Virus record (IMG/VR): IMGVR_UViG_3300035673_000002
Coordinates: 8,831-72,830 of that record
Source: a virus
Taxonomy: Duplodnaviria > Caudoviricetes
Length of the DNA stretch: 64,000 bases
Strand: one strand, 5' to 3'
In this document: in pieces, positions 2,623 through 63,617 of the stretch
Position numbering within the stretch: the stretch's first letter is position 1
Layout of the letters: every line of letters begins with the position of its first letter
Made by a program: the position numbers and the translations under genes
Notes under the pieces: generated by a model
Databases searched by the model: none
What the model was told of the DNA's origin: nothing
What the model saw: only the letters and a program-made list of their open reading frames with translations

Positions 2623-3351
2623 TTATGGGGGATAGGTGGCCTCGACGGGTACCAATACCACAGGCCCGATGACATCGGCGAATTGCTGCGGCACTGGCAC
2701 GGTCTGGTTTGCCTGCAGCATCGCCTCGATCACCCAGCGATCTTCGTACTGTTGCTGGTCATTAACGAATGGAATTTGCTTGGGATCGTCCGCGTAGAGC
2801 GGCGCCACGGTGCTTGAGAGCGCCTTGAAGAACTGCACCGCGTAATCGTCGCGCATCAGGGTGGAGATCACCTGCGCATTGTCTGCGCTGTTGGGCCCGT
2901 GCACGTCTATCTGCATCACGACCATCGTCTCCTGCATCGCTTGCATGGCGCCGGCGGCCATCGTCTCGCTGGCGACGGTCTGGCCGGGCAGGATGCCGTA
3001 GGTGCCCGCTCCGCCTGGCGGTCCGGAAATCTGCGAGGCGATGACGGTGCCCGCGGTGATGCCGGCGCCGAACAGGTTTCGGCCGACTTGGATGGTACCG
3101 AGCGCGACGGCACTGACGGTCATCGTGGTGCCGGCGATCGACGCGGTGAAGGCGGCATCGTCATAGGTGTCGATGTTGGTCGCGATCCGCCCGCGCCTGC
3201 TCGGCGTCATCATGACGAAATCTATGGCCGCAGGCTCCGACACTCGATTGTCCTGGCCTCCGATCACCTCGACGCCGCTCGGCAGGATGCTGAGCAGGAA
3301 CGAGCGCAGCACCGCGTCGATCGCGTCTTCGTTGGGAGTTGGCGCAGTCAT
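2623..3351 (-). CDS. Neck/tail terminator protein with inserted module
   Basis: GQDNRV.EP, QIDVHGP.S.DNA, YADDPKQ.PF.N.QQQYEDRW motifs; position before sheath. Confidence 0.75.
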   Translation of the reverse strand: MTAPTPNEDAIDAVLRSFLLSILPSGVEVIGGQDNRVSEPAAIDFVMMTPSRRGRIATNIDTYDDAAFTASIAGTTMTVSAVALGTIQVGRNLFGAGITAGTVIASQISGPPGGAGTYGILPGQTVASETMAAGAMQAMQETMVVMQIDVHGPNSADNAQVISTLMRDDYAVQFFKALSSTVAPLYADDPKQIPFVNDQQQYEDRWVIEAMLQANQTVPVPQQFADVIGPVVLVPVEATYPP

Positions 3352-6089
3352 GCTGCCATGTCCAGGAAGGCCGGCGTGTTGTCATTGGCCGCCGGCTCGA
3401 GGTCGCGCTTGAGAAGATACGGCGTCGAGATCGCCTGCTCGAGCGAATTCGGGATGCGCGTGGTGAGCCACAGCGCTGCGCTGATGATGTAGCCGTTCCA
3501 GAACTGCGTTGCGTTCGCGAGCGCTCCGAGGTGGAACGTGGTCACGACAGGCGTCGCCGCCGCGGCCGTGGCGTTGTTCGCGCCATTGAAATAGGCGGAT
3601 TGATCTGACGCAGCCGTGGCTGCGACGATCTTTCCGTTTGCGTTTTGCGCCCACACCGCATTCGGCTGGAAGCCGGAGAACGATCCTCCATTGACTATTC
3701 CCGCCTGCGCCAGACCGATATCGAGCGGCCGGAACAGCACCAGACGGTTTGTATTGGAGGTGTCATCGATCTGGGCAGCGGTTTGGGTGATGCCGTAGGT
3801 CACCGGCGCATTCGGCCTTCCATTGATGAACACCGAGTAGGCGCTCCCGAACGAGAACGTGCCCGTCACCACATCGCCCGGACGCGCCACTGCCGCATTC
3901 GTCGTGCGGATGGGCGAGCTTGCATAGCCGGTGTTCTTGCCGGACGTCCAGGGGCCAACATAGTAGCGATAGGTCACGGTCGGCGTGCCCGAGTAGACGT
4001 GCCGCACGCGCACGAAGGCTTGCGTCGTGAGTGCTGGCGCGACCGCCTGGACCTGGTAGAGCGTCAGCGCACCGGCAGCTTTGTTGATCGCGGTCGAGGT
4101 TCGACTGATCTCGACGTTGCTCGAGTTCCCGAAAAGGACCTCGAGGAAGACGGCGGTGAAGCCCGCATCGTCGGTGACGGTTTGATAGTAGGCTGTAGCA
4201 ACCACCACATCGCCGGGGGCAACGGGCGTGACGCTCGCACCTCCAAACGACGCCTGCGGATTGATATCGTATTCCGTTCCCGCCGGCAGTGCGCCGCCGG
4301 CGAGCGACACGTCGAGCACGTTCTGACCGCTGATCGTTGGAAGCGCCAGCGTGCGCGTCTCGGTCCCGACGTTGCTCGAAGCCCACGATGCACCGCCCAC
4401 GAACGGCAGTGTGCCGGGCGATCCCGCAACGGCTCCGGCGACAGTCGGAGCGCCGAGAAGCTGGGACGTGACGCCCGCCTCGATCTGCGGCCAACCGAGC
4501 CGCACGATGATGAAGGTATTGGTCGTTGCTGATGGCTGGACGAAGAACACAGGCCGCGTCGTCGCGACGGTCGCGTCGGTGATGGTCGGCGTGAAGACCA
4601 TCCGGTTCGCACCGATGCCCGCCGCGCTGCCGCTGGCGACTTGGTTCGCATTTCGATAGGTGCCGATGAACGCCGGGCCGGACGCGAAGCTATCCACTCC
4701 GTTGTAGACGGACGCGATATTGGTGGCGGTGCCGAGGGTGCGCCAGAACACGCTCGTCGCCACGATCCCATTGAGAGCGGTCGCAAACTGCCCGCCCGCT
4801 TCGAAGTGAACCCCCTGCTCGGCGGCGGCCGTCGCAAGACCGAAGAAGCACAGATCAAAATACTCGACGCCGTTCTCCGTTCCGTTGCTGACAACTTGGA
4901 TGCCGGTGCCAGTATTGTTGTTGAACACATCTTGGTTTGTGGGCAGTTGTCCGGCGTCCTGCACCGAGACCCTGGTCAGCGTGACGGCTGTGCTCGCGGT
5001 CGAGTTCACGAATGAGATAAAGCTCGTCGTCGATCCAGCCACGAACTGGAAGCGCTTTCCGATCCCCATTCCGGAACTGACATTGAGCAGCGTGCTCCCG
5101 GCAACCGCCGTTCCGACGCGCACCGTGACGGACGTGCCGCCACTGGCGTCGATTGAAAGGTTGTAAGTGTGGCCAGCAATCGTCGTGAGCGCCGTCGTGC
5201 CCTGGAAGTTCGCCGCGTTGCCACTGCCATCCGCCGTGAGGACCACGTTCGGATTGGAGTAGGTCACGGTCGATGTGCCGCCCACTATGTTCCACTGCCA
5301 TCCGTTCTGCGGCGTGTTCTGCGAGGCGTTGATCGGGCTCGAAACAAAGTTGCCGTTCGTCACCAACTCGGCAATGACCGAGGTGCCCTGGAGGATAACC
5401 GGGCTGGCAGTGTTGCGCCCGAAGCGGAGCCATGTCGTCGCGCCCGAGGCGGTGAACTGCAATCGAAAGAAATTGGCTCCGCTGGTGTTGAGCAGATCGT
5501 GAGCGCCTTGAGTGGTGCCAACCTCGACATTGACGTTTGCGCCCGAGGTAAATCCGCTGACGTTGTAGGTCGCGCCAGGAGCAGTGACCATCGACTGCTC
5601 GGCGAAGGCCTCGTTGGTACCGTCTCCGGTCAGCGTCAGTTGCGCCGCCCCGAAGACGACGGTGCCGGTGCCACCGCTCAGACCTGTGGTCCATGTGCTG
5701 GTGTCGTAGAATAAGCCGTTGGCGATCAACGTAGGCGCGACGACGATCCCCTGCGCCGAGTTGTTGCGGATGCCGTTGGTGGCGGGCTGCTCGATCAGCG
5801 CGCCTTTATTCGTGTAGCAGAGCGTGTTCGACGGGACCTGACCCCAATTTCCCGCGGTGTCATCGCAGGCCTTTGGCAGCGCGCGGACGGTGGTCAGCGG
5901 GCAATTGAAAAGCTGCCCGGTCGAGAAGAAGCATCCGACCGACGCGCTCTGGAAACCACTCGGCAAGCGGTTGGCTCCGCCGAGGATCGCCACGCCCTGG
6001 GTCTGCGGCTGGACCGGCTGCGCGATCGCTCCGCTCGCCAGGGCGATGGCGAGGAAGGCCGCAAACCATGAGCGCATGAAGGAGCGCAT
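3348..6089 (-). CDS. Large fibre/spike-like protein: signal peptide, head-spike-fibre-like N-domain, two carbohydrate-binding-like repeats, LamG-like C-domain, ANDN C-terminal motif
   Basis: N-term WFAAFLAIALASGAIA|Q; GALIEQPATN; two L..NG.F-initiated repeats; TT.AAVAR..D; beta-rich T/G/S/N composition; alternative start 6077. Confidence 0.65.
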   Translation of the reverse strand: MRSFMRSWFAAFLAIALASGAIAQPVQPQTQGVAILGGANRLPSGFQSASVGCFFSTGQLFNCPLTTVRALPKACDDTAGNWGQVPSNTLCYTNKGALIEQPATNGIRNNSAQGIVVAPTLIANGLFYDTSTWTTGLSGGTGTVVFGAAQLTLTGDGTNEAFAEQSMVTAPGATYNVSGFTSGANVNVEVGTTQGAHDLLNTSGANFFRLQFTASGATTWLRFGRNTASPVILQGTSVIAELVTNGNFVSSPINASQNTPQNGWQWNIVGGTSTVTYSNPNVVLTADGSGNAANFQGTTALTTIAGHTYNLSIDASGGTSVTVRVGTAVAGSTLLNVSSGMGIGKRFQFVAGSTTSFISFVNSTASTAVTLTRVSVQDAGQLPTNQDVFNNNTGTGIQVVSNGTENGVEYFDLCFFGLATAAAEQGVHFEAGGQFATALNGIVATSVFWRTLGTATNIASVYNGVDSFASGPAFIGTYRNANQVASGSAAGIGANRMVFTPTITDATVATTRPVFFVQPSATTNTFIIVRLGWPQIEAGVTSQLLGAPTVAGAVAGSPGTLPFVGGASWASSNVGTETRTLALPTISGQNVLDVSLAGGALPAGTEYDINPQASFGGASVTPVAPGDVVVATAYYQTVTDDAGFTAVFLEVLFGNSSNVEISRTSTAINKAAGALTLYQVQAVAPALTTQAFVRVRHVYSGTPTVTYRYYVGPWTSGKNTGYASSPIRTTNAAVARPGDVVTGTFSFGSAYSVFINGRPNAPVTYGITQTAAQIDDTSNTNRLVLFRPLDIGLAQAGIVNGGSFSGFQPNAVWAQNANGKIVAATAASDQSAYFNGANNATAAAATPVVTTFHLGALANATQFWNGYIISAALWLTTRIPNSLEQAISTPYLLKRDLEPAANDNTPAFLDMAA

Positions 6090-6096
6090 GCTGGCG

Positions 6097-6675
6097 CTAA
6101 TTCCGCAGGAGGCCGAAGCCGACCGAGATGTCGGTTGCGGCGGTGAAGGTGGGAGTTGCTCGCGTCACGAGGCAGGCGAACATAGTCGTGATGTTTATCA
6201 GCGCGTAGGGCATCGCCAGGTTAAGCGCCTGGCCGATCGATGGCGTGCCGAGCGACGTCCAATCCGTGATGTGGACGACGCCGCGGACCTTGTCGAAGTC
6301 GGCGGCGGAGACGGCGATCGCGGTCTTGTCTGTGCATGTGGTCGTGGTCGGGTTGGCGTTGAAAAGCACGAGGTCCATTTGCGTCGTCTGCAGCGATTTC
6401 GAATTCACGAACACCGATTGCAGCAGACCGCTCGTGGCCGGCGCTCCGGCGTAGGTACCGAGCGCGCGCGCCGCTCCTGCGAGCGTCATGAGGCCGCCGA
6501 CCGCGTTGCCGCTGGCGTAGGCCGATCCTGCCGTGACGGTCTGCGGGATCTGCAGCGGGATTTGATTGCCGCCGACTTCGCCGATGTGAAAATCACCTTG
6601 CGCTGCGGCCGGTGCGATGGCCGCGAGCAGCCAGACAGCAGCTGCCACGAGAAATTTCGTCATCATGGGCGTCAT
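6097..6675 (-). CDS. Signal-peptide-bearing jelly-roll-like virion accessory protein (spike-base-like)
   Basis: [19 protein letters not shown]|QG; [10 protein letters not shown] and LDLVLF..NP-type motifs; lies among neck genes. Confidence 0.5.
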
Positions 6676-7253
6676 GCTCCGTTCTGCAGGGTGACGGCGA
6701 CCTTACACCAGTCCGGCCAATATTCGAGCACCAGAACGACCAGCCAGATTTCGCCGTTCGGCCTGGTGATGAGATCGCCGCCTTTGTTGTCCTTGCGCAC
6801 CAGGCCGTCGATCCGGCCGTTGAGATAAATCGCGCGCTTGATGCCCTGGAGGTTGAGCGAGTCGACCTGGTGGAGATCGCTGAAGGTCATCGATTGAACT
6901 TGGCCCGGAACGGTGAGCGCCGATGTCATGGCCTCGCTGCCGACCGTCTGTCCGGTTGGGCTCACCAGATACGTTCCCGCTCCGCCGGTGCCGGTGCCGA
7001 GCGCGACGATCACGGTCCCGGGGGCGACGCCGGGACCTGTGATCGTCTGCCCCACTTTCAGGACGCCGGAAGCCACGGCGCTGACGGTGAGCACGTTGCC
7101 GGCGATCGCTCCGGTGAAGCTCCCGGGCGTGGCGTATTTCGGCGAGCGGGTTCCGCTCCCGGCGGTGGTGTAGCCGACGCTGATCTGCACGCCGAGTTGC
7201 TCGTCCGGGTTTACGGCCGTGATGGCGCCGCGGACGATCTGGTGAAGGTTCAT
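6672..7253 (-). CDS. Head closure / head-tail joining protein with inserted module
   Basis: MNLHQIV.GAI..VNP start, QVQS...DL.Q...LN.QG, WLVV.VLE.WPDWCK end. Confidence 0.75.
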
Positions 7254-7268: not shown

Positions 7269-8027
7269 TCAGTAGAGGCTGGCGACGGGTCCCACCGCGG
7301 TGGTGAAGGTGCCGGCCGGGGCGAAGGAGACGAAGGTTCCGAAGGTACCGGCGGCCTGGCTTTGGGCGCCGAAGTCGCCGATCGTGTGCGAGCGGAACTT
7401 GTAGCCGACGTTGTTGCACTGCAGTTGGACGTAGTAGGTCGCCGGGCCCTTGGCGGCGTAGGGGGTGGCGAACGGCACGCGCTGGTAGACCGCGGTACCG
7501 GAGGCGGCGGTGGACGCCGAAAGGGCCGCGGCGATCGGCGCTCCGGCGCTGGTGGCGAGGCCGACCTGAATGTTGCCAGCCACGGCGGTCGCGTTGACGA
7601 GCGCGACGCCGGTCACGGTCATGTTCGCCGGGATGAAGAGCTCGGCGACGTAGGTCGTGGTCGCGACGCAGGTGACTTCGGTGCCGTCGGTGATGGCGAG
7701 CGGCTTCCAGTTGCCGGTCATCACCAGGCGCGGCGAGATCGTGAAGCCCGCGGCTGGCCCGATGCCGCCGGTGGGAGTGTACGCTCCGGTGGACGAGAAC
7801 GTGCCGGTGGCCGTCAGATTCGTGAAGGTGCCGGCGACCGGCGTGGTGCCGCCGATCGTCATGTTGTCGATGAGGCCTGGCGCGGCCGGGCTCGTAGTCG
7901 GCGGCGTGAACGGAAACACCTGGTCGCCGATGTTCGTAAAGAACGTCGTGTTGGCAGCCAGGGCGATCGCGTACACGCTGATGAGGGCAGCGCCGGTGAT
8001 GAGTGCCTTGCGAAGCATCGGGATCAT
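7269..8027 (-). CDS. Signal-peptide-bearing fibre-like protein with C-terminal beta-sandwich
   Basis: LRKALITGAALISVYAIALA|A; IDNMTIGGTTPVAGTFT fibre-type motif. Confidence 0.5.
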   Translation of the reverse strand: MIPMLRKALITGAALISVYAIALAANTTFFTNIGDQVFPFTPPTTSPAAPGLIDNMTIGGTTPVAGTFTNLTATGTFSSTGAYTPTGGIGPAAGFTISPRLVMTGNWKPLAITDGTEVTCVATTTYVAELFIPANMTVTGVALVNATAVAGNIQVGLATSAGAPIAAALSASTAASGTAVYQRVPFATPYAAKGPATYYVQLQCNNVGYKFRSHTIGDFGAQSQAAGTFGTFVSFAPAGTFTTAVGPVASLY

Positions 8028-8563
8028 CCTTTCACGTCGTAGTCGACGCTGTTGAGCATGTGGGCAGTCTCGTCGAGCACCTTGGTGGAAACGCCGGCGG
8101 TCGACTCGCCGGCGGCGACGCGTCGTGCCGCCTCGCCCACGGTCTTGCGTGTTACCACGAGCGCCTGGTTCTGCGATTTCATTTTGCGCAGCATGATCGT
8201 GACCGGGCTCAGAGGCGGGGTGTCAGTCTCGATGATTGCTTGCTGCAGCTGGCCGCGGATGCCCTCGCCCAAGCGGCGCAGCGCCTGGTCGGCGTCGTTG
8301 TCGACGGCCTTGAGGTTGGCCTCGAGCGCAGCAGCCCAGCCCGGGCTTTTCGCCGCGACCATGCTCGAGAAAAACGGCCGCGGCGGGATCCTGACTTTCG
8401 GTGCGCCGTAGTTCTGGATCGCCGCCACCATGGCGACCGGCGTGCCGTTGGGATAGGTCGCGTTCTCGAGGAAGCCCACGCGGAGCGTTTCCTTGCGGGC
8501 GAGCTTGTGCGCCAGGACCGCCAGAGCGGCTTCGAATTTGTCGCCGCCTCTGATCGTGGCCAT
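8024..8563 (-). CDS. Neck / tail completion protein
   Basis: LRVGFLENATYP.GTPVA.VAA.Q.YG..IPPRPFF motif; start re-assigned to ATG at 8563. Confidence 0.75.
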   Translation of the reverse strand: MATIRGGDKFEAALAVLAHKLARKETLRVGFLENATYPNGTPVAMVAAIQNYGAPKVRIPPRPFFSSMVAAKSPGWAAALEANLKAVDNDADQALRRLGEGIRGQLQQAIIETDTPPLSPVTIMLRKMKSQNQALVVTRKTVGEAARRVAAGESTAGVSTKVLDETAHMLNSVDYDVKG

Positions 8564-8639
8564 CAGGCCTCTCCTGGTCGCACGGGCCGCGGCCTCGGGC
8601 TTAGGTGGGGGTTTGGTGCCGAGGCCGTCTTGCGCGTGT

Positions 8640-9356
8640 TCAGCGGGGCTCGTTACCCGGCACGACCGGGTCCGGGTTGTTGGGGTCGGGCTGCCGCGGC
8701 TGCGGATCGCCGGGATCGCGCGGGTTGCTCGCGGCCTGGTCGCCGCTCTGGTCGACGCGCTGGGGCGGGATCGCGCCTGGTGCGCCGGCGTGCTGCGGGG
8801 CGTTTGTGGCGAGCGTCGGCGCGCGGCCGGCCTCATGGGGATTGACGAGGCCCGCCTCATTGGGCCCGGTCTGGGGGCCGACCTGGAGGCGTGGCGTGCC
8901 CCGTGGGCGGCCTAACGGTGGCCGTTCGGTAATCGGGACCATTCCGGATGCCGACGGGTCCAGCGGCCTTCCGCCGGCGCGCTGGAGGCCATAGGAGGTG
9001 GCCAGATCGTCGAGGTCCTGGCCGGAAGCGTTCGAGATCGGGTTCTTGACGTCGTAGGCGGCGTCATCGCCGCCGACCGCCTGGAGCGTGCGGGCGCGCA
9101 GGCTGTCGTCGCTCTCGAGGTCCTGGCCGCCCTCGTACTGGGCACGATCATCGTCCTTGCGCGGGGTCTCGGGCGGCGGCAGCGGCTTGTGGATTTCGTC
9201 ATGCAGCCTTTTCGCGTCGGCGTCTTCCTCGGCCTTCTCGCGCGCGCTGTGCGCCTCCCATTGCGGGAGCATGCCCTGGACGAGCATCGGCTCGACCTTG
9301 GCCTTGAAGGCCATCAACTCGGCGATCTGTTTTTCCATCTTGTCGACGTCGGCCAT
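8640..9356 (-). CDS. Hypothetical protein, Pro/Asp-rich tail
   Basis: GGAGA RBS, fills the gap between adaptor and neck genes. Confidence 0.55.
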   Translation of the reverse strand: MADVDKMEKQIAELMAFKAKVEPMLVQGMLPQWEAHSAREKAEEDADAKRLHDEIHKPLPPPETPRKDDDRAQYEGGQDLESDDSLRARTLQAVGGDDAAYDVKNPISNASGQDLDDLATSYGLQRAGGRPLDPSASGMVPITERPPLGRPRGTPRLQVGPQTGPNEAGLVNPHEAGRAPTLATNAPQHAGAPGAIPPQRVDQSGDQAASNPRDPGDPQPRQPDPNNPDPVVPGNEPR

Positions 9357-14849: not shown

Positions 14850-14856
14850 TTGCCGC

Positions 14857-22137: not shown

Positions 22138-22139
22138 GG

Positions 22140-54465: not shown

Positions 54466-54467
54466 CG

Positions 54468-56189
54468 ATGGCGACTGCTGAACTCAAAAAGGCGACGGTG
54501 ACGATGCTGCCGCTGCTCGAATTGAAGTCGGGCGGCAAGGGCTTGAACTCGCGCAAGCGCAAGAGCGACGTTGCCAGCCTGGCGCGTTCGATCGGCGCTC
54601 ACGGATTGCTGGTCCCACTCCTGGTGCGGCGGAGCCTGGACGCCGGCTATTCCGTCATCGATGGGAATCGACGCTACGAGGCGCTGCGCTTCCTGCACAA
54701 GACCGATCACGCGAAGGTCGAGGTGCCGTGCCTAGTCGACGCCGGCGACGGAAGCGCGCTCGAGCTTTCCATGGTCACCAACGTCGAGCGCGAAGGCCTG
54801 CATCCCGTTGATCGGTTCGAGGTCTATGTCGCGCTTGTGAACGGCGGCGAGACAGTCGACGCGATCGCGGCGCGCTACGGCCTTAAGATCACCCAGGTCC
54901 GGCAGGCGCTTGCGCTGGGCCGGCTGGCTCCGGAGGTTCGCGACGCCTGGCGCGAGGGTAAGATCAGCGCCGAGGCGGCCGAGGCCTTCGCGCTCACGTC
55001 CGATCTCAAAGCGCAGGCGGCCGCGCTGAAAAAGTGCGGCCGACATGTCGATGCCTGGCAGATCAAGCGCACGCTGAGCGTCGATCGGGATGATCTTCCG
55101 GACGTCGGCGCGCTGTTGAAATACGTGGGGCGGGATGCCTACCAGAAGGCCGGGCATCATCTGAACGAGACCCTGTTTTCCCGCGGCGGCCGGTTCGATG
55201 ACGATGATGATGAGAGCGGCCGCGAGGTCGTGTCCGATCTGCCGGCGCTCATGCATCTTGCCAACAACAAACTCTCGGAGGAGTGCGATCGCCTCACGGG
55301 GCTCGGTTGGAAATGGGCAGTCACGAAGCGCGATGCCCCGAAGGATATCCGCGCCTGGAAGCGGATTGAGCGGCCGGCCTATGCGAAGGATGCCATGGCC
55401 ACGATGGGGTGCGTGGTCGGTTTGAACTACAACGGGGCGCTTGAGATCGAGCGTGGCATCGTGAAGCCCGGCGATGCGGTGAAGATTGCTAAGGCGAAGC
55501 CCACGCCGGTGGATGCCAAGGCCAAAAAGAAGGCCGCCAAAGCGCGCGAGGAAAAGCTCGAGGAGACCGGCGGTCTGTCGAACGCGCTTGCGTCTCGGCT
55601 GTCTCATCAGCTCACGGCCGCGGTGCGCGAGGCCTTCGCCTCGAGCGTCGGGGCGGATGATCTGCTGTGCCTCACGATCGGGGCTCTGGCGTGCGCCGAG
55701 GCTCCGCTGCAGCTGGCGCTCCGCCCGGAAGCCCGGGCGAGCTTCGGGGAGGCCGAAGGCGAGGACCGCTACGACAATGATTTTTCGAAATACGTTGCGC
55801 TCGCGCGCGGCAAGAAACCGGCGGAGCGATTCCGCCTGCTGGCGACCTGGATGGCTCGCTCGATCGACTTGTCGCAGCACAATGCCGGCCACTTCATGGA
55901 CCAGCTGCGGCCGCCTGCCGCGAAGGAGAAGATGCCCGGCGGCCGGGTCCTGGTGCAGGCGATTCCTGCGGCCGCGATGAAGACTGCGCTGCTCAAGCAC
56001 TTCGATGCCAAGGACTACTTCTCGAGCATCCCGAAGGCGCTGGTGGTCGAGGCGGTGCGCGAAGCACTCGGCGCCTCGGTAGCGGCCGAGGTCGCCAAAA
56101 TGAAGACGGGCGAGGCGCAGGCGTTCGCGCTCGGGCGCGTCCCCAAGACCGGGTGGGTTCCGCCGGCGATGCGCATCGGGAAGGCCTGA
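54468..56189 (+). CDS. parB: ParB/RepB/Spo0J-family protein (long plasmid-type)
   Basis: LA.SI...GLL.PL.V, IDGNRR, N..REGLHP.D, HTH IA.RYG....V...L.L..L. Confidence 0.8.
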   Translation: MATAELKKATVTMLPLLELKSGGKGLNSRKRKSDVASLARSIGAHGLLVPLLVRRSLDAGYSVIDGNRRYEALRFLHKTDHAKVEVPCLVDAGDGSALELSMVTNVEREGLHPVDRFEVYVALVNGGETVDAIAARYGLKITQVRQALALGRLAPEVRDAWREGKISAEAAEAFALTSDLKAQAAALKKCGRHVDAWQIKRTLSVDRDDLPDVGALLKYVGRDAYQKAGHHLNETLFSRGGRFDDDDDESGREVVSDLPALMHLANNKLSEECDRLTGLGWKWAVTKRDAPKDIRAWKRIERPAYAKDAMATMGCVVGLNYNGALEIERGIVKPGDAVKIAKAKPTPVDAKAKKKAAKAREEKLEETGGLSNALASRLSHQLTAAVREAFASSVGADDLLCLTIGALACAEAPLQLALRPEARASFGEAEGEDRYDNDFSKYVALARGKKPAERFRLLATWMARSIDLSQHNAGHFMDQLRPPAAKEKMPGGRVLVQAIPAAAMKTALLKHFDAKDYFSSIPKALVVEAVREALGASVAAEVAKMKTGEAQAFALGRVPKTGWVPPAMRIGKA

Positions 56190-57804: not shown

Positions 57805-58362
57805 TCATCGGACCAGCCGAAGCCGGACCTTCGTGGTGATCAATATGCGCGGGCTGGGGCGCATCTCGTCGAGCCAGCTGCAGCGGTAGCGCACCGAGGA
57901 GAACGCCAGCAGGATCTCGTAATCGTGGCCGGGCAGCACTTCCAGATTGGCTGGCACCCATGCCTGGTATCCTGACGGCCGCGGCGTCGGTGCGCCTGTC
58001 GCCTGGTTGATCGGGTCCGCATCGAAAATCTGCGAGACGAAGAGCGGCCTGCCGTCCTGGCCGAGCGCCTGGAATTCGCGATGGTCGCTCTCGCGCTCGA
58101 GCAGGCGGCTGATATCAAGACGGCACGATTGCCAGCGCTCGACGTCGTAAGCGAGACGGTACGAGCTCCCCGTCTTGACGATATCGTCTCCGATGATGCG
58201 GACGTTTCCGAATGTCGTGGGCGGGTAGGAAGCGTCGTAGAACAGCTGCCATGCGAAGCCGCCGGCGACGCCGAAGATGATGGCGATCGCAAACCAGGAC
58301 AGCGCATAGGTCAGACGGTCAAGGGTGCGCAGCCTCCGGTACGGTTGTTGTTGTAGGGCCAT
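57805..58362 (-). CDS. Membrane-anchored periplasmic protein of the lysis region
   Basis: TM LSWFAIAIIFGVAGGFAW; two Cys; AAGGAG RBS. Confidence 0.6.
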   Translation of the reverse strand: MALQQQPYRRLRTLDRLTYALSWFAIAIIFGVAGGFAWQLFYDASYPPTTFGNVRIIGDDIVKTGSSYRLAYDVERWQSCRLDISRLLERESDHREFQALGQDGRPLFVSQIFDADPINQATGAPTPRPSGYQAWVPANLEVLPGHDYEILLAFSSVRYRCSWLDEMRPSPRILITTKVRLRLVR

Positions 58363-58657
58363 ATCGGTTCGGCTCTCCTTTGGCCTGGAGCCCGATCTTC
58401 GTCAGGACGGCGCCGCCGACCGCGATGCAAACGAGCGTGATGAGCGCATAGACGAAGTTCCGGACCGGCGCGAATTCGGTTCGCAGAACGTATTTTTTGT
58501 CCTGGCCTTCAAGCGTTCTCTCGATGCGCTGGACCGCGTTGATGAGGTAGCGCCGATAGCTCGACCACTCCTGCGAAGCCGTCGCGGCGACTTCGTCGTC
58601 GATCAAATCTTCAACTCGACGCCTCTCGTCCTCTGCGTCGTCCTTTCGCCCCGCCAT
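58319..58657 (-). CDS. Holin-like single-TM protein
   Basis: YV...EF.PVR.FVYALITLVCIAVGG. Confidence 0.5.
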   Translation of the reverse strand: MAGRKDDAEDERRRVEDLIDDEVAATASQEWSSYRRYLINAVQRIERTLEGQDKKYVLRTEFAPVRNFVYALITLVCIAVGGAVLTKIGLQAKGEPNRYGPTTTTVPEAAHP

Positions 58658-59120: not shown

Positions 59121-59693
59121 TTAGGAGGTCTTGGGCGCCGCGGTGACCACGGCCGCGACGGGAGGCTTGCCCTCGGGCGGCGTGATCTCGGGAGCCGTCG
59201 GCGCCGCCGGGTCGACCAGCGCCGTCTCGATCCTGGCCTGGATAGTCTCGATCGCAGCCTTGCTGTACGGGTCGAGGCCGAGCGCCTTGATCACGTCTTT
59301 GCCGTGATCCTGGGCATAGCGCACAGCGAAGGCCGCAGCATCGTTCTTGATCTCGATCATGCCGGCTCCCGGGAGCTTTTCCTTGGCGGCCGCGGCACCG
59401 GCGTTGAGGCCGTTGACGATCAGGGCCTGCAGCTGCGCCTTCCTGGCGTCGGTGGTTTCGATACCGGCCTTCTGCATCAGCCTGCCGATGTAGCCGGTCA
59501 GTACGATGCCGATCGTAGTTGCGAAGAAGCCGACGATGTATTGGATGAAATCGTTGGCGATCCTCCCGGTGTCGATCACGACCGCCGTTCCCGGGGCTGC
59601 GACGACGGCTTCGGTGGCGGCTTGCTGTGCGACCGCGGGGAGCGTGACGGCGATCGAGAGGATGGCGGCGGCGAGCATGATCCTTCGCAGCAT
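59121..59693 (-). CDS. Holin-like (LL-H type) protein with N-terminal signal peptide
   Basis: LRRIMLAAAILSIAVTLPAVA|QQ, internal TM, LQALI.NGLNAG...AV.YA. Confidence 0.5.
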   Translation of the reverse strand: MLRRIMLAAAILSIAVTLPAVAQQAATEAVVAAPGTAVVIDTGRIANDFIQYIVGFFATTIGIVLTGYIGRLMQKAGIETTDARKAQLQALIVNGLNAGAAAAKEKLPGAGMIEIKNDAAAFAVRYAQDHGKDVIKALGLDPYSKAAIETIQARIETALVDPAAPTAPEITPPEGKPPVAAVVTAAPKTS

Positions 59694-59738: not shown

Positions 59739-60785
59739 TTACACGAATTCCCAATAATCAAGTTTGATGGTGCGTTGCTCGCGGGGTCCGGGGGCCCGCA
59801 GTGCGTCCATTGTCGCCGGGGTGAGATCGATGCCCGCCTGGTTTCCATGGCGCAGGCGCTCGGCGCGCGGGCGCTGGGCCGTCTTCCAGTAGGGATCGTC
59901 GGTGTACCAGGGGCCCTTGTCGACGATGGGGGCAATCACGGCCTTGCCCTGCCAGACCAGGCGCACCAATGGGCGAGCTCCCGGGAAGGCCGCGGGCAGC
60001 GATACCCCGAGCGCGTTGTCGTCCACCCACCCGCCGTAGGCGCTGCGCTGGTGCTCGCTCGGGCCGCCGAATTCGGTGGCGATGATCAGCTTCATGGACG
60101 GCGTTGTCGGTTGCGGCGCCGGATCGATTGCCGGCGGCGGCGTTGCCGGCTCGTGCGTGACATCGTTCGCCCACTCCGCGCGCAGCTGCTCGTCACTCGC
60201 TTCGTAGGAGCTTATGTCGAGGCCGCCGTCGATCGAGATGCCGGGGACGCTATGCGGCTTGGGCCCGATGCCGTCGCCGGTGAACTGCCACAGCCATGGC
60301 GCCTTCCATGATCGCTGCACCGTCCACTTCGATGCGTACTGTGCCAGCCAGAGCCGTCGCTCTGACCAGAACGGGACGAAGCGATCGCCGAGCTTTTCCT
60401 TGATCGTGTTGCCGCTGTAGAGCACGACCTTGCGGCCGATCTTGCTCTCGACGTGCAGGATGAATTCCTGGCACTCGAGCGGCTCGACATTGCCGACTTC
60501 GTAATCGAGCGAGATCAGCGTGCTGTCGGTGGGCCTGGCGCATCGAAGGAAAAAATCGGCCTGCGCTTCCATGTTGGAGCTCGGCCGGATGAAATGGTAC
60601 GCGCCATTGAGCAATCCTGCCGCGAGGATCTTCGGCACGCGATCGGCATAGCGATCGTCCACGCGCGCGGTGCCTTCGCTCGACTTCTGGATCACGCCCA
60701 CGATGCCGGCTCTCCGGACGGCCTGGAAGCCGTCGCCAACCACGGCGTCGTAATGCGAGACGTCGATGACCTTCGGATTGATCAT
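59739..60785 (-). CDS. Endolysin: GH25 muramidase + Pro linker + RlpA-like double-psi barrel
   Basis: VIDVSHY, GAYHF, LDYE, LWLAQY, WQFT, D.S.Y; C-domain IVDKGPW and GIDLTPA. Confidence 0.82.
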   Translation of the reverse strand: MINPKVIDVSHYDAVVGDGFQAVRRAGIVGVIQKSSEGTARVDDRYADRVPKILAAGLLNGAYHFIRPSSNMEAQADFFLRCARPTDSTLISLDYEVGNVEPLECQEFILHVESKIGRKVVLYSGNTIKEKLGDRFVPFWSERRLWLAQYASKWTVQRSWKAPWLWQFTGDGIGPKPHSVPGISIDGGLDISSYEASDEQLRAEWANDVTHEPATPPPAIDPAPQPTTPSMKLIIATEFGGPSEHQRSAYGGWVDDNALGVSLPAAFPGARPLVRLVWQGKAVIAPIVDKGPWYTDDPYWKTAQRPRAERLRHGNQAGIDLTPATMDALRAPGPREQRTIKLDYWEFV

Positions 60786-60798: not shown

Positions 60799-61395
60799 TT
60801 ACGGCAGCGTCGGGTTCGGGTTCGGCGCGAGCCAGCGAAAGCCGATGAAAATCCAATCCATCGTTTGCGAAGAGCCGAGCTTGCATCCGAGCAGATCGCC
60901 GGCGTCGCGGTCCAGCAGGATCGGCGGGTCTATCTTGTGATCGTCGCGGATGGACGCGCCGGAATAGAGTTGGCTGAAAAGCTGGATCACATTGACAAAG
61001 TTCGATCCTATCTCCCGGCCATTGGGCGTCCCGGTGTGAAAGAACGCCCCGCCGGGATCAACCCAGCACGAGAGCTCGTTGGAGCCGACCGCTGCTGACG
61101 ATCCGTACGCAACGAGGATGCGACTGAGGTACGCCTTGCGCGGGAAGGTCGCCGGAAGATGCATCGCGCGCTGCTGCAAGCCTGGTGCCGGCGTGAACGG
61201 GATTGTCGCCGGATCCTGGTCGCCGATCCATTGCCAGGCGCCTGCGGGGTAAGCAGCATAAGCGCCCGTCTCCTGATCCTGACCCCAGACGCGCGGGATC
61301 CAGTAGTACTGCTGCTGGACGTATAGCACCTGCGCGATCGCACAGGCCGCTGAGATTAAAAGCGCGGTGATTGCAACACTGATTATTTTCGTCAT
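60799..61395 (-). CDS. Signal-peptide-bearing beta-sandwich protein
   Basis: TKIISVAITALLISAACAIA|QV; ATGA coupling to the fibre gene. Confidence 0.6.
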   Translation of the reverse strand: MTKIISVAITALLISAACAIAQVLYVQQQYYWIPRVWGQDQETGAYAAYPAGAWQWIGDQDPATIPFTPAPGLQQRAMHLPATFPRKAYLSRILVAYGSSAAVGSNELSCWVDPGGAFFHTGTPNGREIGSNFVNVIQLFSQLYSGASIRDDHKIDPPILLDRDAGDLLGCKLGSSQTMDWIFIGFRWLAPNPNPTLP

Positions 61396-63308
61396 GCCAC
61401 GGCATCCATGAACATCGGGGTGTTGTCGTTCGCTGCGGGATCGAGGTCGCGTCGGAGTAGCCAAGTGCCATAGTGCTCGATGATGAAGAGCCGGCCACCG
61501 CCGCCAGTGCCTCCAGCGAATGATGCTCCAGCTGTACCCGCTGTTCCGGCCGCTCCCGCCACGTAGGTGAAGGTTTGGCTAGGGCTCGGGTTGAGGATGA
61601 TGAAGTAGCACGTTGCACCTGCGCCGCCGCCCGGACCAGTTGAAGCTGCGCCACCGACTCCGCCACCCTGGCCACCGCTGCCGGAGTTTGCCGCTGCGGC
61701 GGACCCAGCAGCGTTGAACGTCTTGCCGCCAGCGCCACCGAGAGACGACGCGCCTCCCATCGCGCCACCCGCGCTCGCGCTCGACGTCTGGCTGGAACCA
61801 CCTTCGCCACCGGCCACCGACCAGTTGCAGGCGGTGCTGCCGGATATGGCACCGCCACTACCACCGGCACCTGTCGTCCAGTTGCCTCCCGTGCCGCCGT
61901 TGGCGTTGTAGACAGGCGTCGTGCACGCTGCGCCTGACGTGTTCCAGCACGAATCTCCACCGGTCCCGCCTGCGCCCGGGGCTGCTCCACTTCCGCTGCC
62001 ACCACCACCACCACCGACGATCCATCCTTCTAGCCAGAGGACGTTGGCGGGTGTCGTGTACGTGCCGCTGGCGTTGGCGGCGAAGCCTCCTGAGTGGCTG
62101 GTCAGTGTGACAAGGCTTGTGGTCGGACCCGTACGCCGAGCGGGGGTAAGCCCAATCGCACCCAACGCGATTTCGATCCCGTTGCCAGGAGCCGTGCAGC
62201 TCGGGACACCAGCGGCGCTCGTCACATAGGCGCAGTTGTTGCCTTTCGTCACCTCGCCGAGCACGCCACCGTTATCGTAGAGCAGTTGGTTGGTCACGCC
62301 GCTGGTGATGGTCGTAGTCCCCACTACGACCGAGGTCGCTGCCGTCGTGACCGTGCACGAGCCGCCGAGCGGGCAACTTGTCGCGTTGATCGTGGTCGCG
62401 GCCTGGGTGCCGGCGATGTAGAGCGGGCCGGTGACGTTGAGCGTGCCCGCGCCCTTGTCGCCTCCGGTTACGCCTGGCGGCATCGTCACGCCGCCGCTCT
62501 GTTCCCATCGCATCGTTGCGGCTAACGTGGTCCCACCGTTCGCGGTGGTTCCGACTTCGCAGTACGTGCCTTGCTTGGGCAGCGATGTCCACGTCTCCGC
62601 AGCGAAGCACCGATAGGTGCCGCTCGGACCGACATAGGCTGCGCCGTTGTAGCCGTAGGAATTATAACCGCCGATCTGCGTATTCGCGGTCAGCGCCGTC
62701 GGGACCGCGGCCGTGCCTCCAGCGGCTATGCTTGTGAAGAATGCTTGTGCGCCGAACGCGCTGACTTCGATGCGCGCTGGCGTGGCGTTCGCGCCGCCGA
62801 CGCGCAACCCGGTCCCGGTCTGCGCCGCCGGCAAAGCTGCGGCATTGAACCTGACGGTCTGCGCTGCAGTGAAAGTGTTCGCGATCGAGAAATCGAACGC
62901 GTAGGTCACGACGCCGGCCGGGAAGGTTACGGCGATAGGCGACGTCGCGGCGAAGCTGGAACCACCGCCACCGGTGAGCGGGCCGACGTTGACCCCATTG
63001 ATGCGGACGAAAAGGCCGGTCGTTGTCGTCCACACATCGCCATCGATTGGCGTGGTGGGGGCGGCGCCGGATGGGATGCTGAAGCCAGCCGATGTCGCTG
63101 ACGATCTCACCGTGACCAGCGGTCCGGTCATTACTCCGCCGGCGGAATTGAGCGGGGTGAAGCCCAGCACATCCTGCTTGGCAGCAAAATATCCGTTCCA
63201 CTGTCCTGCGGTTGGGATCTGCCCCCTGATGAGGTTCGGGCTCGACTGCGCCAACGCGGAAACGGCCGACGCGGCGAGCGCGACGACGGCGGCGAAGAAA
63301 TGCCTCAT
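61392..63308 (-). CDS. Tail-fibre-like protein with signal peptide, Gly-rich C-domain and ANDN C-terminal motif
   Basis: RHFFAAVVALAASAVSALA|QSSP; LGFTPLN.AG..MTG.L; WIVGGGGGG Gly-rich fibre domain; GGGAGA RBS. Confidence 0.75.
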   Translation of the reverse strand: MRHFFAAVVALAASAVSALAQSSPNLIRGQIPTAGQWNGYFAAKQDVLGFTPLNSAGGVMTGPLVTVRSSATSAGFSIPSGAAPTTPIDGDVWTTTTGLFVRINGVNVGPLTGGGGSSFAATSPIAVTFPAGVVTYAFDFSIANTFTAAQTVRFNAAALPAAQTGTGLRVGGANATPARIEVSAFGAQAFFTSIAAGGTAAVPTALTANTQIGGYNSYGYNGAAYVGPSGTYRCFAAETWTSLPKQGTYCEVGTTANGGTTLAATMRWEQSGGVTMPPGVTGGDKGAGTLNVTGPLYIAGTQAATTINATSCPLGGSCTVTTAATSVVVGTTTITSGVTNQLLYDNGGVLGEVTKGNNCAYVTSAAGVPSCTAPGNGIEIALGAIGLTPARRTGPTTSLVTLTSHSGGFAANASGTYTTPANVLWLEGWIVGGGGGGSGSGAAPGAGGTGGDSCWNTSGAACTTPVYNANGGTGGNWTTGAGGSGGAISGSTACNWSVAGGEGGSSQTSSASAGGAMGGASSLGGAGGKTFNAAGSAAAANSGSGGQGGGVGGAASTGPGGGAGATCYFIILNPSPSQTFTYVAGAAGTAGTAGASFAGGTGGGGRLFIIEHYGTWLLRRDLDPAANDNTPMFMDAVA

Positions 63309-63329
63309 GTTCGTCTCCCTGATCACTTG

Positions 63330-63617
63330 TCAACCCGGTGGCAGCGGGCACACCTTGCGCTCGCGGAGCATCCACACGTTCTTCTGGCCCCACGGATTGG
63401 TGATGAGCGAGCAGTAGCTTGGGACCGGACTTCGGTTGCAGTCCTGAATGTAGATCGTCTGCGTGCGGGTGCAGCCACTGTCGTCTACGCAAACCCTGTC
63501 GTTAGTGCAGGATGGTCGCCCGTCGCCGCACGTCTCCGCAGGCGGCGTATTGCAAGATGGAGCCGACTCCGCGAGCGCCGGGCTCGACAACAGCAGGAAC
63601 AGAAGCAATACGCGCAT
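63330..63617 (-). CDS. Secreted 8-Cys mini-protein
   Basis: MRVLLLFLLLSSPALA|ES; 8 Cys in 79 mature residues. Confidence 0.65.
   Translation of the reverse strand: MRVLLLFLLLSSPALAESAPSCNTPPAETCGDGRPSCTNDRVCVDDSGCTRTQTIYIQDCNRSPVPSYCSLITNPWGQKNVWMLRERKVCPLPPG

What the first reader, a model, noticed from the sequence alone, without database searches (positions are those of the whole stretch)
3348..63617. A family of late-region proteins, including fibre/spike-like virion proteins, carry Sec-type signal peptides and paired cysteines
Seen: eight late-block genes begin with a basic n-region, a hydrophobic h-region and an A-x-A signal-peptidase-I site, six of them with Q at +1: 3348..6089 (AIA|QP), 6097..6675 (AAA|QG), 7269..8027 (ALA|AN), 15201..15542 (AAA|QA), 59121..59693 (AVA|QQ), 60799..61395 (AIA|QV), 61392..63308 (ALA|QS), 63330..63617 (ALA|ES). 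Mature parts mostly have even, locally paired Cys (10 in the 61.4-63.3 kb fibre, 8 in 63330, 2 each in 6097, 7269 and 60799; four of five clustered at the N-end of 3348). Capsid, sheath, tube, portal and neck proteins lack such leaders. Established: tailed virions assemble in the reducing cytoplasm, so fibres and spikes normally have no export signal. Inference: this phage exports its receptor-binding/decoration proteins to the periplasm for oxidative folding and attaches them at or after inner-membrane rupture, or displays them on the host surface.
Basis: partly seen in the sequence, partly recalled or inferred. Interest (0 to 1): 0.9.

Follow-up and report, generated by a model that had tools for sequence, protein, structure and literature searches.

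The report
Phage fibre-like proteins carrying export signals
A 72.8-kb contractile-tailed soil phage and many relatives, including prophages of Bradyrhizobium and Rhizobium, put ordinary secretion signals and paired cysteines on fibre-like proteins encoded among their tail and neck genes, so these proteins almost certainly fold outside the cytoplasm where the particle is built; whether they then join the particle is untested.

Summary
Observation confirmed and extended. All eight ORFs carry textbook Sec/signal-peptidase-I leaders. A ninth, a 456-aa beta-helix-like protein, spans the junction of the circular genome. A rule-based detector passes 0.8% of shuffled N-termini and no head, neck, sheath, tube or baseplate protein.

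The 638-aa fibre has over 5,000 homologues. Of the top 149, 138 keep a leader and 116 have Gln at +1. A-x-A|Q is at least 90% conserved in 30 aligned sequences. Mature cysteine counts are even in 184 of 195 leader-bearing homologues, against 14 even and 11 odd in 28 leaderless ones. In the 7269 family, one Cys pair occurs in 22 of 37 leader-bearing homologues and 1 of 83 leaderless ones.

The fibre gene keeps its place after baseplate J, Wedge1 and a leaderless tail fibre in most of the 18 genome loci found, including prophages of Bradyrhizobium, Rhizobium and Labrys.

The closest known relatives are the Bdellovibrio MAT fibres. Export and oxidative folding are well supported. Attachment to virions is inferred only. 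Gene 59121 belongs to the lysis cassette, and 15201 is a small accessory gene.

I found no published description for tailed phages. This scan has noted the same pattern in many other phage genomes.

The parts
61392..63308 (-). 638-aa exported fibre (SP638). It has a leader cut at about ALA|QS, a conserved mature N-terminus (QWN..F..KQD, then G.MTG), a beta-sandwich body and a Gly-rich C-terminal domain. It has 10 Cys and a C-terminal tail of about 26 aa with the ANDN motif.
   Evidence: Searches show the leader. Searches show the homologues, the conserved cut site and the even Cys counts. Searches show the match to Bdellovibrio MAT fibres and phage tail fibres.
63634..64000 (-). C-terminal 122 codons of a ninth leader-bearing protein (SP456). 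It is beta-helix or tailspike-like. Its N-terminal 338 aa lie outside the window at genome 3..1016 (L004:3-1016:-). It is the next gene after the leaderless tail fibre.
   Evidence: define the ORF and its leader. One search places it nearest to viral tail-collar and pectate-lyase-like clusters, which is a lead only. One search shows that residues 28-111 are homologous to a segment inside the leaderless tail fibre of a Rhizobium prophage.
63330..63617 (-). 95-aa Cys-rich exported protein (SP95) with 8 Cys in the mature part. It lies between SP456 and SP638.
   Evidence: No homologues were found in the fetched loci.
60799..61395 (-). 198-aa exported protein (SP198). Its start overlaps the stop of SP638 in an ATGA, which is the usual place of a fibre-assembly partner. 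Cys18 lies in the leader, so a lipoprotein reading is not excluded.
3348..6089 (-). 913-aa exported protein (SP913) in the neck slot, between the head-closure gene and the tail terminator. It is ConA-like lectin (Laminin_G_3)-like by Atlas features and ends in the same ANDN tail as SP638.
   Evidence: Searches show the leader. Searches show the shared C-terminal tail. One search gives the Atlas result. Searches show a segment shared with the J protein of phage RHph_TM16. One search found no full-length homologue.
6097..6675 (-). 192-aa exported protein (SP192) with 2 Cys, immediately upstream of SP913 in the neck slot.
   Evidence: Searches show small leader-bearing proteins in the same slot in Bradyrhizobium and Rhizobium prophages. 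Those are not homologous to SP192.
7269..8027 (-). 252-aa exported protein (SP252) with a DUF4082-like C-terminal domain and the Cys pair C120/C204. It lies between the Neck1 and head-closure genes.
15201..15542 (-). 113-aa Pro/Ala-rich protein with a leader and no Cys (SP113), between the MuF-like gene and the protease/scaffold gene. It is an accessory gene and is not fibre-like.
   Evidence: One search shows that a Bradyrhizobium prophage has an unrelated leader-bearing gene in the same gap.
14857..15198 (-). Membrane protein of about 113 aa with three hydrophobic segments, directly downstream of SP113. Its start is uncertain.
   Evidence: hydropathy. One search found no PHROG family.
59121..59693 (-). 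190-aa protein with a leader-like N-terminus and a second transmembrane segment at about residues 48-70. It lies next to the endolysin and is a lysis-cassette membrane protein, not a virion fibre.
   Evidence: One search gave only a weak PHROG hit.
59739..60785 (-). GH25 endolysin with no leader and no SAR segment.
57805..58657 (-). Two further single-TM proteins of the lysis region: 57805-58362 with an N-terminal TM segment and 58319-58657 with a C-terminal one.
2623..3351 (-). Tail terminator, leaderless. It bounds the neck slot on the tail side.
6672..7253 (-). Head-closure-type protein (phrog_1912), leaderless. It bounds the neck slot on the head side.
8024..8860 (-). Neck1 / tail-completion protein, leaderless.

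Best explanation
These are real Sec/signal-peptidase-I substrates. The large ones form a set of modular, disulfide-bonded fibre, spike and lectin-like proteins. They sit in two variable slots of the virion operon of an E217/Pam3-type myophage lineage of Hyphomicrobiales. One slot lies after the baseplate wedge and the leaderless tail fibre. The other lies between the head-closure and tail-terminator genes.

Proposed route. Late in infection the proteins are exported to the periplasm and cut after A-x-A, which mostly leaves an N-terminal Gln that can cyclise to pyroglutamate. They then fold and trimerise with disulfides. Their small leader-bearing neighbours may act as periplasmic partners.

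The endolysin has no export signal, so lysis should need a hole-forming holin. When the inner membrane opens, finished particles and periplasmic fibres mix, and the fibres dock on the particle as accessory host-recognition appendages. Docking could use the conserved mature N-terminus or, in a subset, the shared C-terminal ANDN tail.

Shown here: the leaders, their conservation, the cysteine pairing, the fibre fold, the conserved gene order and the module sharing. Inferred: cleavage, pyroglutamate, the timing and the docking. Genes 59121 and 15201 are outside this scheme. The first is a lysis membrane protein and the second a small accessory gene.
For: Leaders:
- Searches show nine leaders where chance would give about 0.6.
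- None occurs on capsid, portal, neck, sheath, tube or baseplate proteins.

Conservation in the SP638 family:
- One search found 5087 homologues at E<=1e-3.
- Searches show that 138 of the top 149 carry a leader, 116 with Q at +1.
- One search shows A18, A20 and Q21 conserved at 90% or more.

Oxidative folding:
- 184 even, 9 odd and 2 zero Cys counts in 195 leader-bearing homologues, against 14 even and 11 odd in leaderless ones.
- the C120/C204 pair occurs in 22 of 37 leader-bearing members and 1 of 83 leaderless members of the same domain family.
- of 34 homologues with Cys in QWNxCF, 33 also have a Cys in the 22 residues upstream (that window can reach into the leader).

Fibre identity:
- a profile of the family hits Bdellovibrio MAT fibre structures at E 1.5e-10.
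- Foldseek finds the MAT fibres Bd1334 and Bd2439, the T5 L-shaped fibre, lambda gpJ and the Pam3 fibre.
- some homologues carry Peptidase_S74, Collar, pectate-lyase or fibritin domains.

Place in the virion operon:
- Searches show the order J, Wedge1, leaderless fibre, optional Tfa-like gene, exported fibre, endolysin. It holds in phage contigs and in prophages of Bradyrhizobium, Rhizobium, Labrys and Lichenihabitans; in a Paraburkholderia locus only a short leader-region match (residues 1-61) was seen, lying between J and Wedge1.
- Searches found no promoter- or terminator-like sites of their own around these genes.

Module sharing with leaderless virion fibres.

Lysis: searches show an endolysin without a leader.

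Precedent: searches show that Cellulophaga phage phi18:3 gp085-087 have leader-like N-termini and are annotated as virion proteins from MS/MS.
Against: - No experiment and no trained signal-peptide predictor was available.
- Nothing here shows these proteins in particles.
- The phage has a complete leaderless tail fibre of 242 aa with its own tip. Relatives have longer ones followed by a Tfa-like chaperone. The exported fibres are therefore extras.
- The neck slot is empty in three related prophages.
- Only about 25 residues separate the cut site from a generic shaft module, so there is no recognisable baseplate-anchor domain.
- The nearest characterised relatives, the MAT fibres, work on a cell surface and not on a virion.
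- One slot-mate in a relative looks like an SGNH esterase by motif, and an enzyme could act free.
- A few homologues lack the leader (L021; several).
- The Cys statistics count related sequences, not independent events.
Confidence: 0.4

Rival explanations
1. The proteins are exported but never attach to the particle. They act free at the envelope of the infected cell or on neighbouring cells and debris once released. Possible roles are cutting or binding surface polysaccharide, masking receptors on debris so that progeny are not lost, or helping release through capsule or EPS.
For: - Export is well supported, whereas docking is not shown.
- The phage already has a leaderless tail fibre.
- Slot contents include enzyme-like proteins: a beta-helix-like protein here (a lead only) and an SGNH-like esterase in a Bradyrhizobium prophage (by motif).
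- The neck slot is dispensable in relatives.
- No baseplate-anchor domain is recognisable.
Against: - The genes sit inside the virion operon, with translational coupling and no promoter-like sites of their own. They are therefore made only minutes before lysis.
- The conserved N-terminus with hypervariable tips is the pattern of virion receptor-binding proteins.
- The tips of the exported fibres differ from the tip of the leaderless fibre. Masking the particle's own receptor is therefore unlikely.
- Sec export reaches the periplasm only, not the cell surface.
Confidence: 0.3
2. The proteins work like MAT fibres. After export they are carried to the outer surface of the infected or lysogenic cell, anchored by the conserved N-terminal region, and act as adhesins or as a shield against superinfection.
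For: - There is sequence and fold homology to Bdellovibrio MAT fibres.
- MAT fibres share the layout of signal peptide, conserved N-terminal domain, trimeric fibre and a variable tip with or without S74, and they are surface-exposed (PMC10769870).
- Some homologues end in a hydrophobic stretch followed by an Arg cluster, which could be a membrane anchor.
Against: - Most of the genome and contig copies examined lie next to the same phage baseplate module. This points to a phage partner and not a host-envelope partner.
- The genes sit in the late operon.
- No route across the outer membrane is encoded nearby.
- Homology of the N-terminal region to the MAT N-domain was not tested, because no full-length MAT sequence was at hand.
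Confidence: 0.12
3. The hydrophobic N-termini are not cleaved export signals. They are membrane tethers or assembly helices that hold cytoplasmic fibres at the inner membrane until assembly.
For: Cleavage is predicted only. Gene 59121 shows that some of these N-termini belong to true membrane proteins.
Against: - The n-h-c layout is canonical, and A-x-A|Q is conserved while the h-region sequence varies freely.
- The even-Cys rule and the link between the Cys pair and the leader are hard to explain for proteins that stay in the reducing cytoplasm.
- The model gives low confidence around residues 16-23; by my reading this suggests a flexible junction, not a structural helix continuous with the body.
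Confidence: 0.06

Closest known systems
Bdellovibrio bacteriovorus MAT (mosaic adhesive trimer) fibres (Caulton et al. 2024, PMC10769870; PDB 8OML, 8ON4, 8OL4, 8ONF)
   Same: Both have a signal peptide, then a conserved N-terminal region, then a long fibre and a swappable tip. The tip carries a Peptidase_S74 chaperone in some members. A profile of the SP638 family hits MAT structures at E 1.5e-10, and Foldseek ranks them first.
   Different: MAT fibres are chromosomal genes of a predatory bacterium and work on its own surface. The proteins here lie inside the tail and neck gene blocks of a phage and its prophage relatives. Homology of the N-terminal regions was not tested. The tips differ: Gly-rich Cys-containing, ConA-like and DUF4082-like domains occur here.
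Leader-bearing virion proteins of the cultured Cellulophaga phage phi18:3 (gp085, gp086, gp087; record NC_021794)
   Same: Three consecutive large proteins next to the lysis genes have Sec-type N-termini, two with a clear A|Q cut site. The record annotates them as virion or tail proteins from MS/MS. This is the nearest experimental hint that such proteins reach particles.
   Different: The host phylum (Bacteroidota, where Q at +1 is the rule) and the phage family both differ, and I saw no sequence relation. Cleavage, location on the particle and co-purification artefacts were not addressed in what I read. I saw only the record's annotation.
Ordinary leaderless tail fibres (T5 pb1 L-shaped fibre, cyanophage Pam3 fibre, lambda gpJ; the leaderless 242-aa fibre of this phage)
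   Same: They share fibre folds and shaft modules, a position at the end of the tail module, and variable tips.
   Different: Ordinary fibres have an N-terminal virion-anchor domain and no leader, and they assemble in the cytoplasm. Here a cleavable leader replaces the anchor, and the cysteines are paired.
Signal-peptide genes of Porphyromonas gingivalis phages (Matrishin et al. 2023, PMC10367356)
   Same: Phage genes carry Sec leaders that expose Gln at +1. The authors read them as a way to alter the host envelope.
   Different: Those are unknown-function genes, capsid proteins and spanins of Bacteroidota phages. That paper makes no claim about tail fibres or export of virion parts.
Sec-exported coat proteins of filamentous phages (pIII and pVIII of Ff; own knowledge)
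   Same: They are virion proteins made with cleavable leaders and, in pIII, folded with disulfides in the periplasm.
   Different: Filamentous phages assemble at the membrane and are extruded without lysis. Here the head and tail are built in the cytoplasm, and only the appendages would be exported.

Membership tests
Sec / signal peptidase I substrates | Basic n-region, uncharged hydrophobic h-region, small residues at -3 and -1 | tested here: met
   A rule-based detector passes the eight claimed proteins and a ninth. Shuffled N-termini pass in 13 of 1600 trials. SignalP was not available.
Sec / signal peptidase I substrates | The leader is kept in homologues while its h-region sequence drifts | tested here: met
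   138 of 149 SP638 homologues carry a leader. A18, A20 and Q21 are at least 90% conserved. The closest SP252 homologues and the Bradyrhizobium prophage copy keep the leader.
Sec / signal peptidase I substrates | Extracytoplasmic chemistry: cysteines paired into disulfides | tested here: met
   Cys counts are even in 184 of 195 leader-bearing homologues, against 14 even and 11 odd in leaderless ones. The C120/C204 pair occurs in 22 of 37 leader-bearing and 1 of 83 leaderless members. These are indirect statistics on related sequences.
Sec / signal peptidase I substrates | Actual translocation and cleavage | not testable with these tools
   This needs PhoA/BlaM fusions and N-terminal mass spectrometry.
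MAT fibres (Bdellovibrio) | A signal peptide followed by a conserved N-terminal domain | tested here: inconclusive
   Both elements are present within this family. Homology of the N-terminal region to the MAT N-domain was not tested, because only the MAT tip structures were at hand.
MAT fibres (Bdellovibrio) | Fibre body or tip domains homologous to solved MAT fibres | tested here: met
   A profile search hits 8ON4 at E 1.5e-10 and 8OML at E 1.3e-9. Foldseek hits 8OML at E 7e-7. The match covers roughly residues 180-340.
MAT fibres (Bdellovibrio) | Trimeric fibre displayed on the producer's surface | not tested
   No multimer prediction was run. Location cannot be computed.
Canonical tailed-phage tail fibre | Gene in the tail module, downstream of the baseplate wedge | tested here: met
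Canonical tailed-phage tail fibre | Leaderless N-terminal domain that anchors the fibre to the baseplate in the cytoplasm | tested here: not met
   A cleavable leader plus about 25 residues precede the generic shaft module. The true anchor domain (phrog_12796) is on the separate 242-aa leaderless protein.
Canonical tailed-phage tail fibre | Presence in purified particles | not testable with these tools
   No cultured phage in the 50,697-record collection carries the family's leader-bearing N-terminal region.
Lysis-cassette membrane proteins (for 59121..59693 only) | Transmembrane segment(s) and a position beside the endolysin | tested here: met
   Hydropathy shows a second transmembrane segment at residues 48-70. 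The GH25 endolysin is the next gene. No homology to a named holin or spanin family was found.
Bacteroidota Q-rule substrates | Gln at +1 of the signal peptidase I site in a Bacteroidota host | tested here: not met
   Gln at +1 is present: 6 of 8 here, 7 of 9 with the junction protein, and 116 of 138 homologues. However, the relatives are prophages of Hyphomicrobiales and other Pseudomonadota, not Bacteroidota.

The most novel reading that the evidence does not exclude
Tailed-phage particles of this lineage finish their host-recognition gear outside the cytoplasm. Several different disulfide-bonded fibres and spikes mature in the periplasm. They dock on neck and baseplate only when the holin opens the inner membrane, using a short conserved N-terminal peptide or the shared C-terminal ANDN tail as a common handle.
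Probability: 0.35. Interest if true: 0.9.

Novelty: new variant of a known kind. Interest (0 to 1): 0.72.

Why it matters
The textbook picture is that tailed phages assemble wholly in the reducing cytoplasm. A large, conserved family of Sec-exported, cysteine-paired fibre proteins inside tail and neck gene blocks does not fit that picture.

If the proteins join the particle, this adds a periplasmic or at-lysis step to virion assembly. It would also explain how soil phages obtain disulfide-stabilised receptor-binding proteins.

If they stay free, phages of rhizobia release a set of secreted lectins and enzymes at lysis. Either way there are practical consequences:
- Host-range prediction from "tail fibre" genes is affected.
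- Recombinant production of such fibres needs periplasmic expression.
- It bears on how the Bdellovibrio MAT adhesins arose from phage fibres.

Cultured lysogens that carry the module make the question testable. They include Rhizobium freirei PRF 81, Labrys sp. La1 and Bradyrhizobium sp. LjRoot220.

Tried and rejected
Searches that returned nothing:
- Pfam, PHROGs and NCBIfam on the eight proteins gave only a sub-threshold DUF4082 hit and one weak PHROG hit.
- Megablast of the head region against cultured phages gave only a 100-bp match in the protease/scaffold gene (12960-14882), annotated 'portal protein' in those records.
- tblastn of SP913 and SP638 against 50,697 phage records found only internal shaft modules in phages RHph_TM16 and Paso.
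- A word-based search with SP913 found only itself.
- A viral-contig scan with the sheath protein found one distant locus.
- Six literature searches found no description of Sec-exported tail fibres in tailed phages. The library holds open-access papers only.
- The supplements of the MAT paper held no N-terminal sequences for comparison.
- The small proteins and the lysis proteins have no homologues in the fetched loci.

Ideas considered and dropped:
- Start-codon artefact. Upstream frames are short, and ribosome-binding sites or ATGA couplings are present.
- Morons with their own promoters. No promoter- or terminator-like sites were found on the coding strand. This is a crude sigma-70 scan only.
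- A fibre split into a leaderless stub plus an exported distal half. The 242-aa leaderless protein ends in what looks like a tip domain of its own (my reading of the sequence).

Not run:
- A complex prediction between the exported fibres and baseplate or neck proteins. No partner had a prior high enough for a pass to be informative.

Full report
**What the window is**

The window is 64,000 of the 72,830 bases of a circular phage genome. The two ends of the genome share 12 bases.

The minus strand carries a late operon. Its order is terminase, portal, MuF-like protein, protease/scaffold, decoration protein, major capsid protein, Neck1, head-closure protein, tail terminator, sheath and tube.

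The operon continues outside the window with tape measure, hub, spike, sheath initiator, baseplate J, Wedge1 (DUF2612) and a 242-aa leaderless tail fibre that matches phrog_12796. Because the genome is circular, the genes at window 57.8-64 kb follow directly after that fibre.

Pfam labels on related contigs place the tail among the E217/Pam3-type myophages. Those labels include E217_gp31_N, E217_Gp32, Pam3_gp18, E217_GP41, Sheath_initiator and Phage_Wedge1.

**Checking the observation**

- All eight ORFs translate as described, with the stated cysteine positions.
- The start codons are sound. In-frame upstream extensions are short, and most starts have a purine-rich ribosome-binding site or an ATGA overlap with the preceding gene.
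- A rule-based Sec/SPI detector passes the eight plus a ninth protein of 456 aa that spans the genome junction.
- No capsid, portal, neck, sheath, tube or baseplate protein passes.
- Among all 320 mechanical ORFs of at least 80 aa, nine pass, and seven of those are claimed genes. Shuffled N-termini pass in 0.8% of trials.
- Chance would therefore give about 0.6 among roughly 75 genes, against nine observed.

**The set is not uniform**

- Gene 59121..59693 has a second transmembrane segment and lies next to a leaderless GH25 endolysin. Two further single-TM proteins follow it. It is a lysis-cassette protein.
- Gene 15201..15542 is a small Cys-free protein next to a 3-TM protein, in a gap of the head module.
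- The remaining seven are fibre, spike or lectin-like proteins or their small neighbours.

**Do homologues keep the leaders?**

They do, very clearly.

- An exhaustive phmmer search with the 638-aa protein found 5087 cluster representatives at E<=1e-3. Many alignments start at residues 1-10 of both proteins.
- All 30 fetched homologues that align from the N-terminus begin with a canonical leader.
- In their alignment A20 is invariant, and A18 and Q21 are at least 90% conserved.
- Of the top 149 hits, 138 pass the leader rule, and 116 of those have Gln at +1. Of the 11 that fail, three are fragments, one is a run-on ORF and one a near-pass; most of the rest are leaderless fibres that share only internal shaft modules.
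- Proteins that share only the Gly-rich C-terminal domain, under quite different N-terminal bodies, also start with leaders.
- For the 252-aa protein, the closest homologues and a Bradyrhizobium prophage copy keep the leader. Eighty-three more distant proteins with the same DUF4082-like domain have ordinary leaderless N-termini.

**Evidence for oxidative folding**

- In 195 leader-bearing members of the fibre family, the mature cysteine count is even in 184, odd in 9 and zero in 2. In 28 leaderless members it is even in 14 and odd in 11.
- In the DUF4082-like family, the pair equivalent to C120/C204 is present in 22 of 37 leader-bearing proteins and 1 of 83 leaderless ones. Parity is 31 even to 2 odd with a leader, and 20 even to 46 odd without.
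- Near the mature N-terminus, of 34 homologues with a Cys in the QWNxCF motif, 33 also have a Cys in the 22 residues upstream; that window can reach into the leader.
- These counts come from related sequences, so they are not independent events. The direction and size of the effect are nonetheless what disulfide-bonded extracytoplasmic proteins would show.

**Where the genes sit in relatives**

- Homologues lie in phage-sized metagenomic contigs and in prophages.
- A pattern scan of 185,579 species genomes returned 18 loci. They come from Bradyrhizobium, Rhizobium, Labrys, Lichenihabitans, Methylocella, Paraburkholderia and several MAGs.
- In most of them the order is sheath, tube, tape measure, hub, J, Wedge1, leaderless fibre, often a Tfa-like protein, the exported fibre, then the lysis genes.
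- The neck slot, between head closure and terminator, is empty in three prophages. In a Bradyrhizobium prophage and in Rhizobium freirei PRF 81 it holds a small Cys-rich leader-bearing protein plus a large leader-bearing protein.
- In the Bradyrhizobium prophage the large protein is SGNH-esterase-like by motif and ends in the ANDN tail. In R. freirei it is fibre-like.
- The leader-bearing genes therefore occupy two variable slots, exactly where tail fibres and neck fibres are normally encoded.
- No sigma-70-like promoter or intrinsic terminator flanks them on the coding strand.

**What the proteins are**

- A profile of the fibre family matches solved Bdellovibrio MAT fibre domains (8ON4 at E 1.5e-10, 8OML at E 1.3e-9).
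- An AlphaFold2 model has mean pLDDT 64, rising to 80-92 over residues 170-280.
- Foldseek finds the MAT fibres Bd1334 and Bd2439 first. The T5 L-shaped fibre, lambda gpJ and the Pam3 fibre follow.
- Some homologues carry Peptidase_S74, Collar, pectate-lyase or fibritin domains.
- The MAT paper states that all 21 MATs have a signal peptide followed by a conserved domain of about 130 aa. It also states that they form trimeric surface fibres with swappable tips (PMC10769870). The layout is the same.
- The 913-aa protein resembles viral ConA-like lectin (Laminin_G_3) proteins by language-model features and model structure.
- The 456-aa protein sits nearest to tail-collar and beta-helix clusters. 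This is a lead only.

Modules move between exported and cytoplasmic fibres:
- A Rhizobium prophage's leaderless tail fibre contains a segment homologous to residues 28-111 of the 456-aa protein, plus a Gly-rich tip.
- Shaft modules recur in the T7-like fibre of phage Paso and in the J protein of RHph_TM16.

**How it most likely works**

- Export to the periplasm, cleavage and disulfide formation are the well-supported part. I put this at about 0.85 for the seven fibre-like proteins and their neighbours.
- What happens next is inference.
- The endolysin lacks any leader or SAR segment. By established lysis biology it therefore depends on a holin that opens large lesions in the inner membrane. 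This would let particles and periplasmic proteins meet before the outer membrane fails.
- Fibre attachment as the last assembly step, reproducible in vitro, is established for T4 (own knowledge).
- A record of a cultured phage gives a precedent. Cellulophaga phage phi18:3 gp085-087 have leader-like N-termini and are annotated as virion proteins from MS/MS.
- I therefore rank attachment at lysis first (0.4). Free action at the envelope follows at 0.3, MAT-like surface display at 0.12 and uncleaved tethers at 0.06. The remainder is for mixtures and unknowns.

Points against attachment:
- The phage also has a complete leaderless fibre.
- The neck slot is dispensable in relatives.
- The mature N-terminus before the generic shaft module is only about 25 residues long.
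- The nearest characterised relatives act on a cell surface.

**Two unexplained details that could be handles**

- SP638 and SP913 are otherwise unrelated but share a C-terminal tail of about 26 aa that contains ANDN. The same tail ends an esterase-like slot-mate in a Bradyrhizobium prophage and about six to eight of 223 family members.
- Gln at +1 is far more frequent here than I would expect for Pseudomonadota (own knowledge). It recalls the Q-rule of Bacteroidota, as discussed for Porphyromonas phages in PMC10367356. It may reflect selection for a pyroglutamate-capped N-terminus.

**Novelty**

- Six literature searches found no description of Sec-exported tail- or neck-fibre proteins in tailed phages.
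- The nearest items in print are the MAT fibres and the remark on Porphyromonas phages.
- This scan's own notes show the same pattern reported in many other phage genomes, including Bradyrhizobium-type phages. Later checks there priced the bold reading low.
- I took two leads from those notes, the phi18:3 record and the Porphyromonas paper, and checked both myself.

Noticed in passing
window 63634..64000 plus genome 13..1016 (L004:3-1016:-): A ninth leader-bearing protein of 456 aa with even Cys and a beta-helix-like repeat pattern spans the junction of the circular genome.
   Followed up: partly
window 3348..3425 and 61392..61469: SP913 and SP638 share a C-terminal tail of about 26 aa (LL-R/K-RDL-D/E-PAANDNTP..F..D..A). 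The same tail ends an SGNH-like protein in a Bradyrhizobium prophage (L036) and a handful of distant family members. Its function is unknown. It could be a common docking or sorting handle.
   Followed up: partly
window 14857..15198: A small protein with three hydrophobic segments lies directly downstream of the 15201 leader protein, inside the head-gene block. A Bradyrhizobium prophage (L036) has other leader- and TM-bearing genes in the same MuF-protease gap.
   Followed up: partly
window 12960..14882: The protease/scaffold ORF has an N-terminal stretch (residues about 11-133) that matches NUDIX/MutT hydrolase PHROGs. Either a NUDIX domain is fused to the head protease or the start is miscalled.
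   Followed up: no
window 472..2610, 2623..3351, 6672..7253, 11897..12841 and baseplate J (L004:2441-3871): A module of about 65 aa gives cross-hits between the sheath, terminator, head-closure, decoration and J proteins, here and in the related prophages. It is probably a surface-exposed Ig-like insertion.
   Followed up: partly
L024:9944-10426 and L021:10004-10930: Two natural variants of the exported fibre exist. One is a 160-aa protein made only of the leader plus the conserved N-terminal region, followed by a 957-aa leaderless protein. The other is a 308-aa copy that starts at the mature N-terminus without a leader.
   Followed up: no
L040:11345-13807 (Acetobacter phage phiAO1): This cultured phage has a related baseplate J. 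It encodes an 820-aa protein with a leader-like N-terminus at the end of its tail module, and a 158-aa neighbour with a hydrophobic N-terminal segment.
   Followed up: no
window 19351..22833 and 22431..23819: The longest portal ORF (1160 aa) overlaps the terminase ORF by about 400 bases, and the portal match starts near residue 327. The portal start is probably far downstream of the first start codon. The portal also has a long C-terminal extension.
   Followed up: no
window 54414..56189, 35697..38048, 31294..32826: The early region encodes a ParB-like protein, a primase-helicase (CHC2 zinc finger, Toprim, AAA_25) and an N6/N4 DNA methylase. None of the ten proteins scanned is an integrase.
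   Followed up: no
window 33868..34416 (+): A plus-strand ORF also passes the leader rule, but it lies opposite three minus-strand genes that have better codon-position GC. It is probably not a gene.
   Followed up: no
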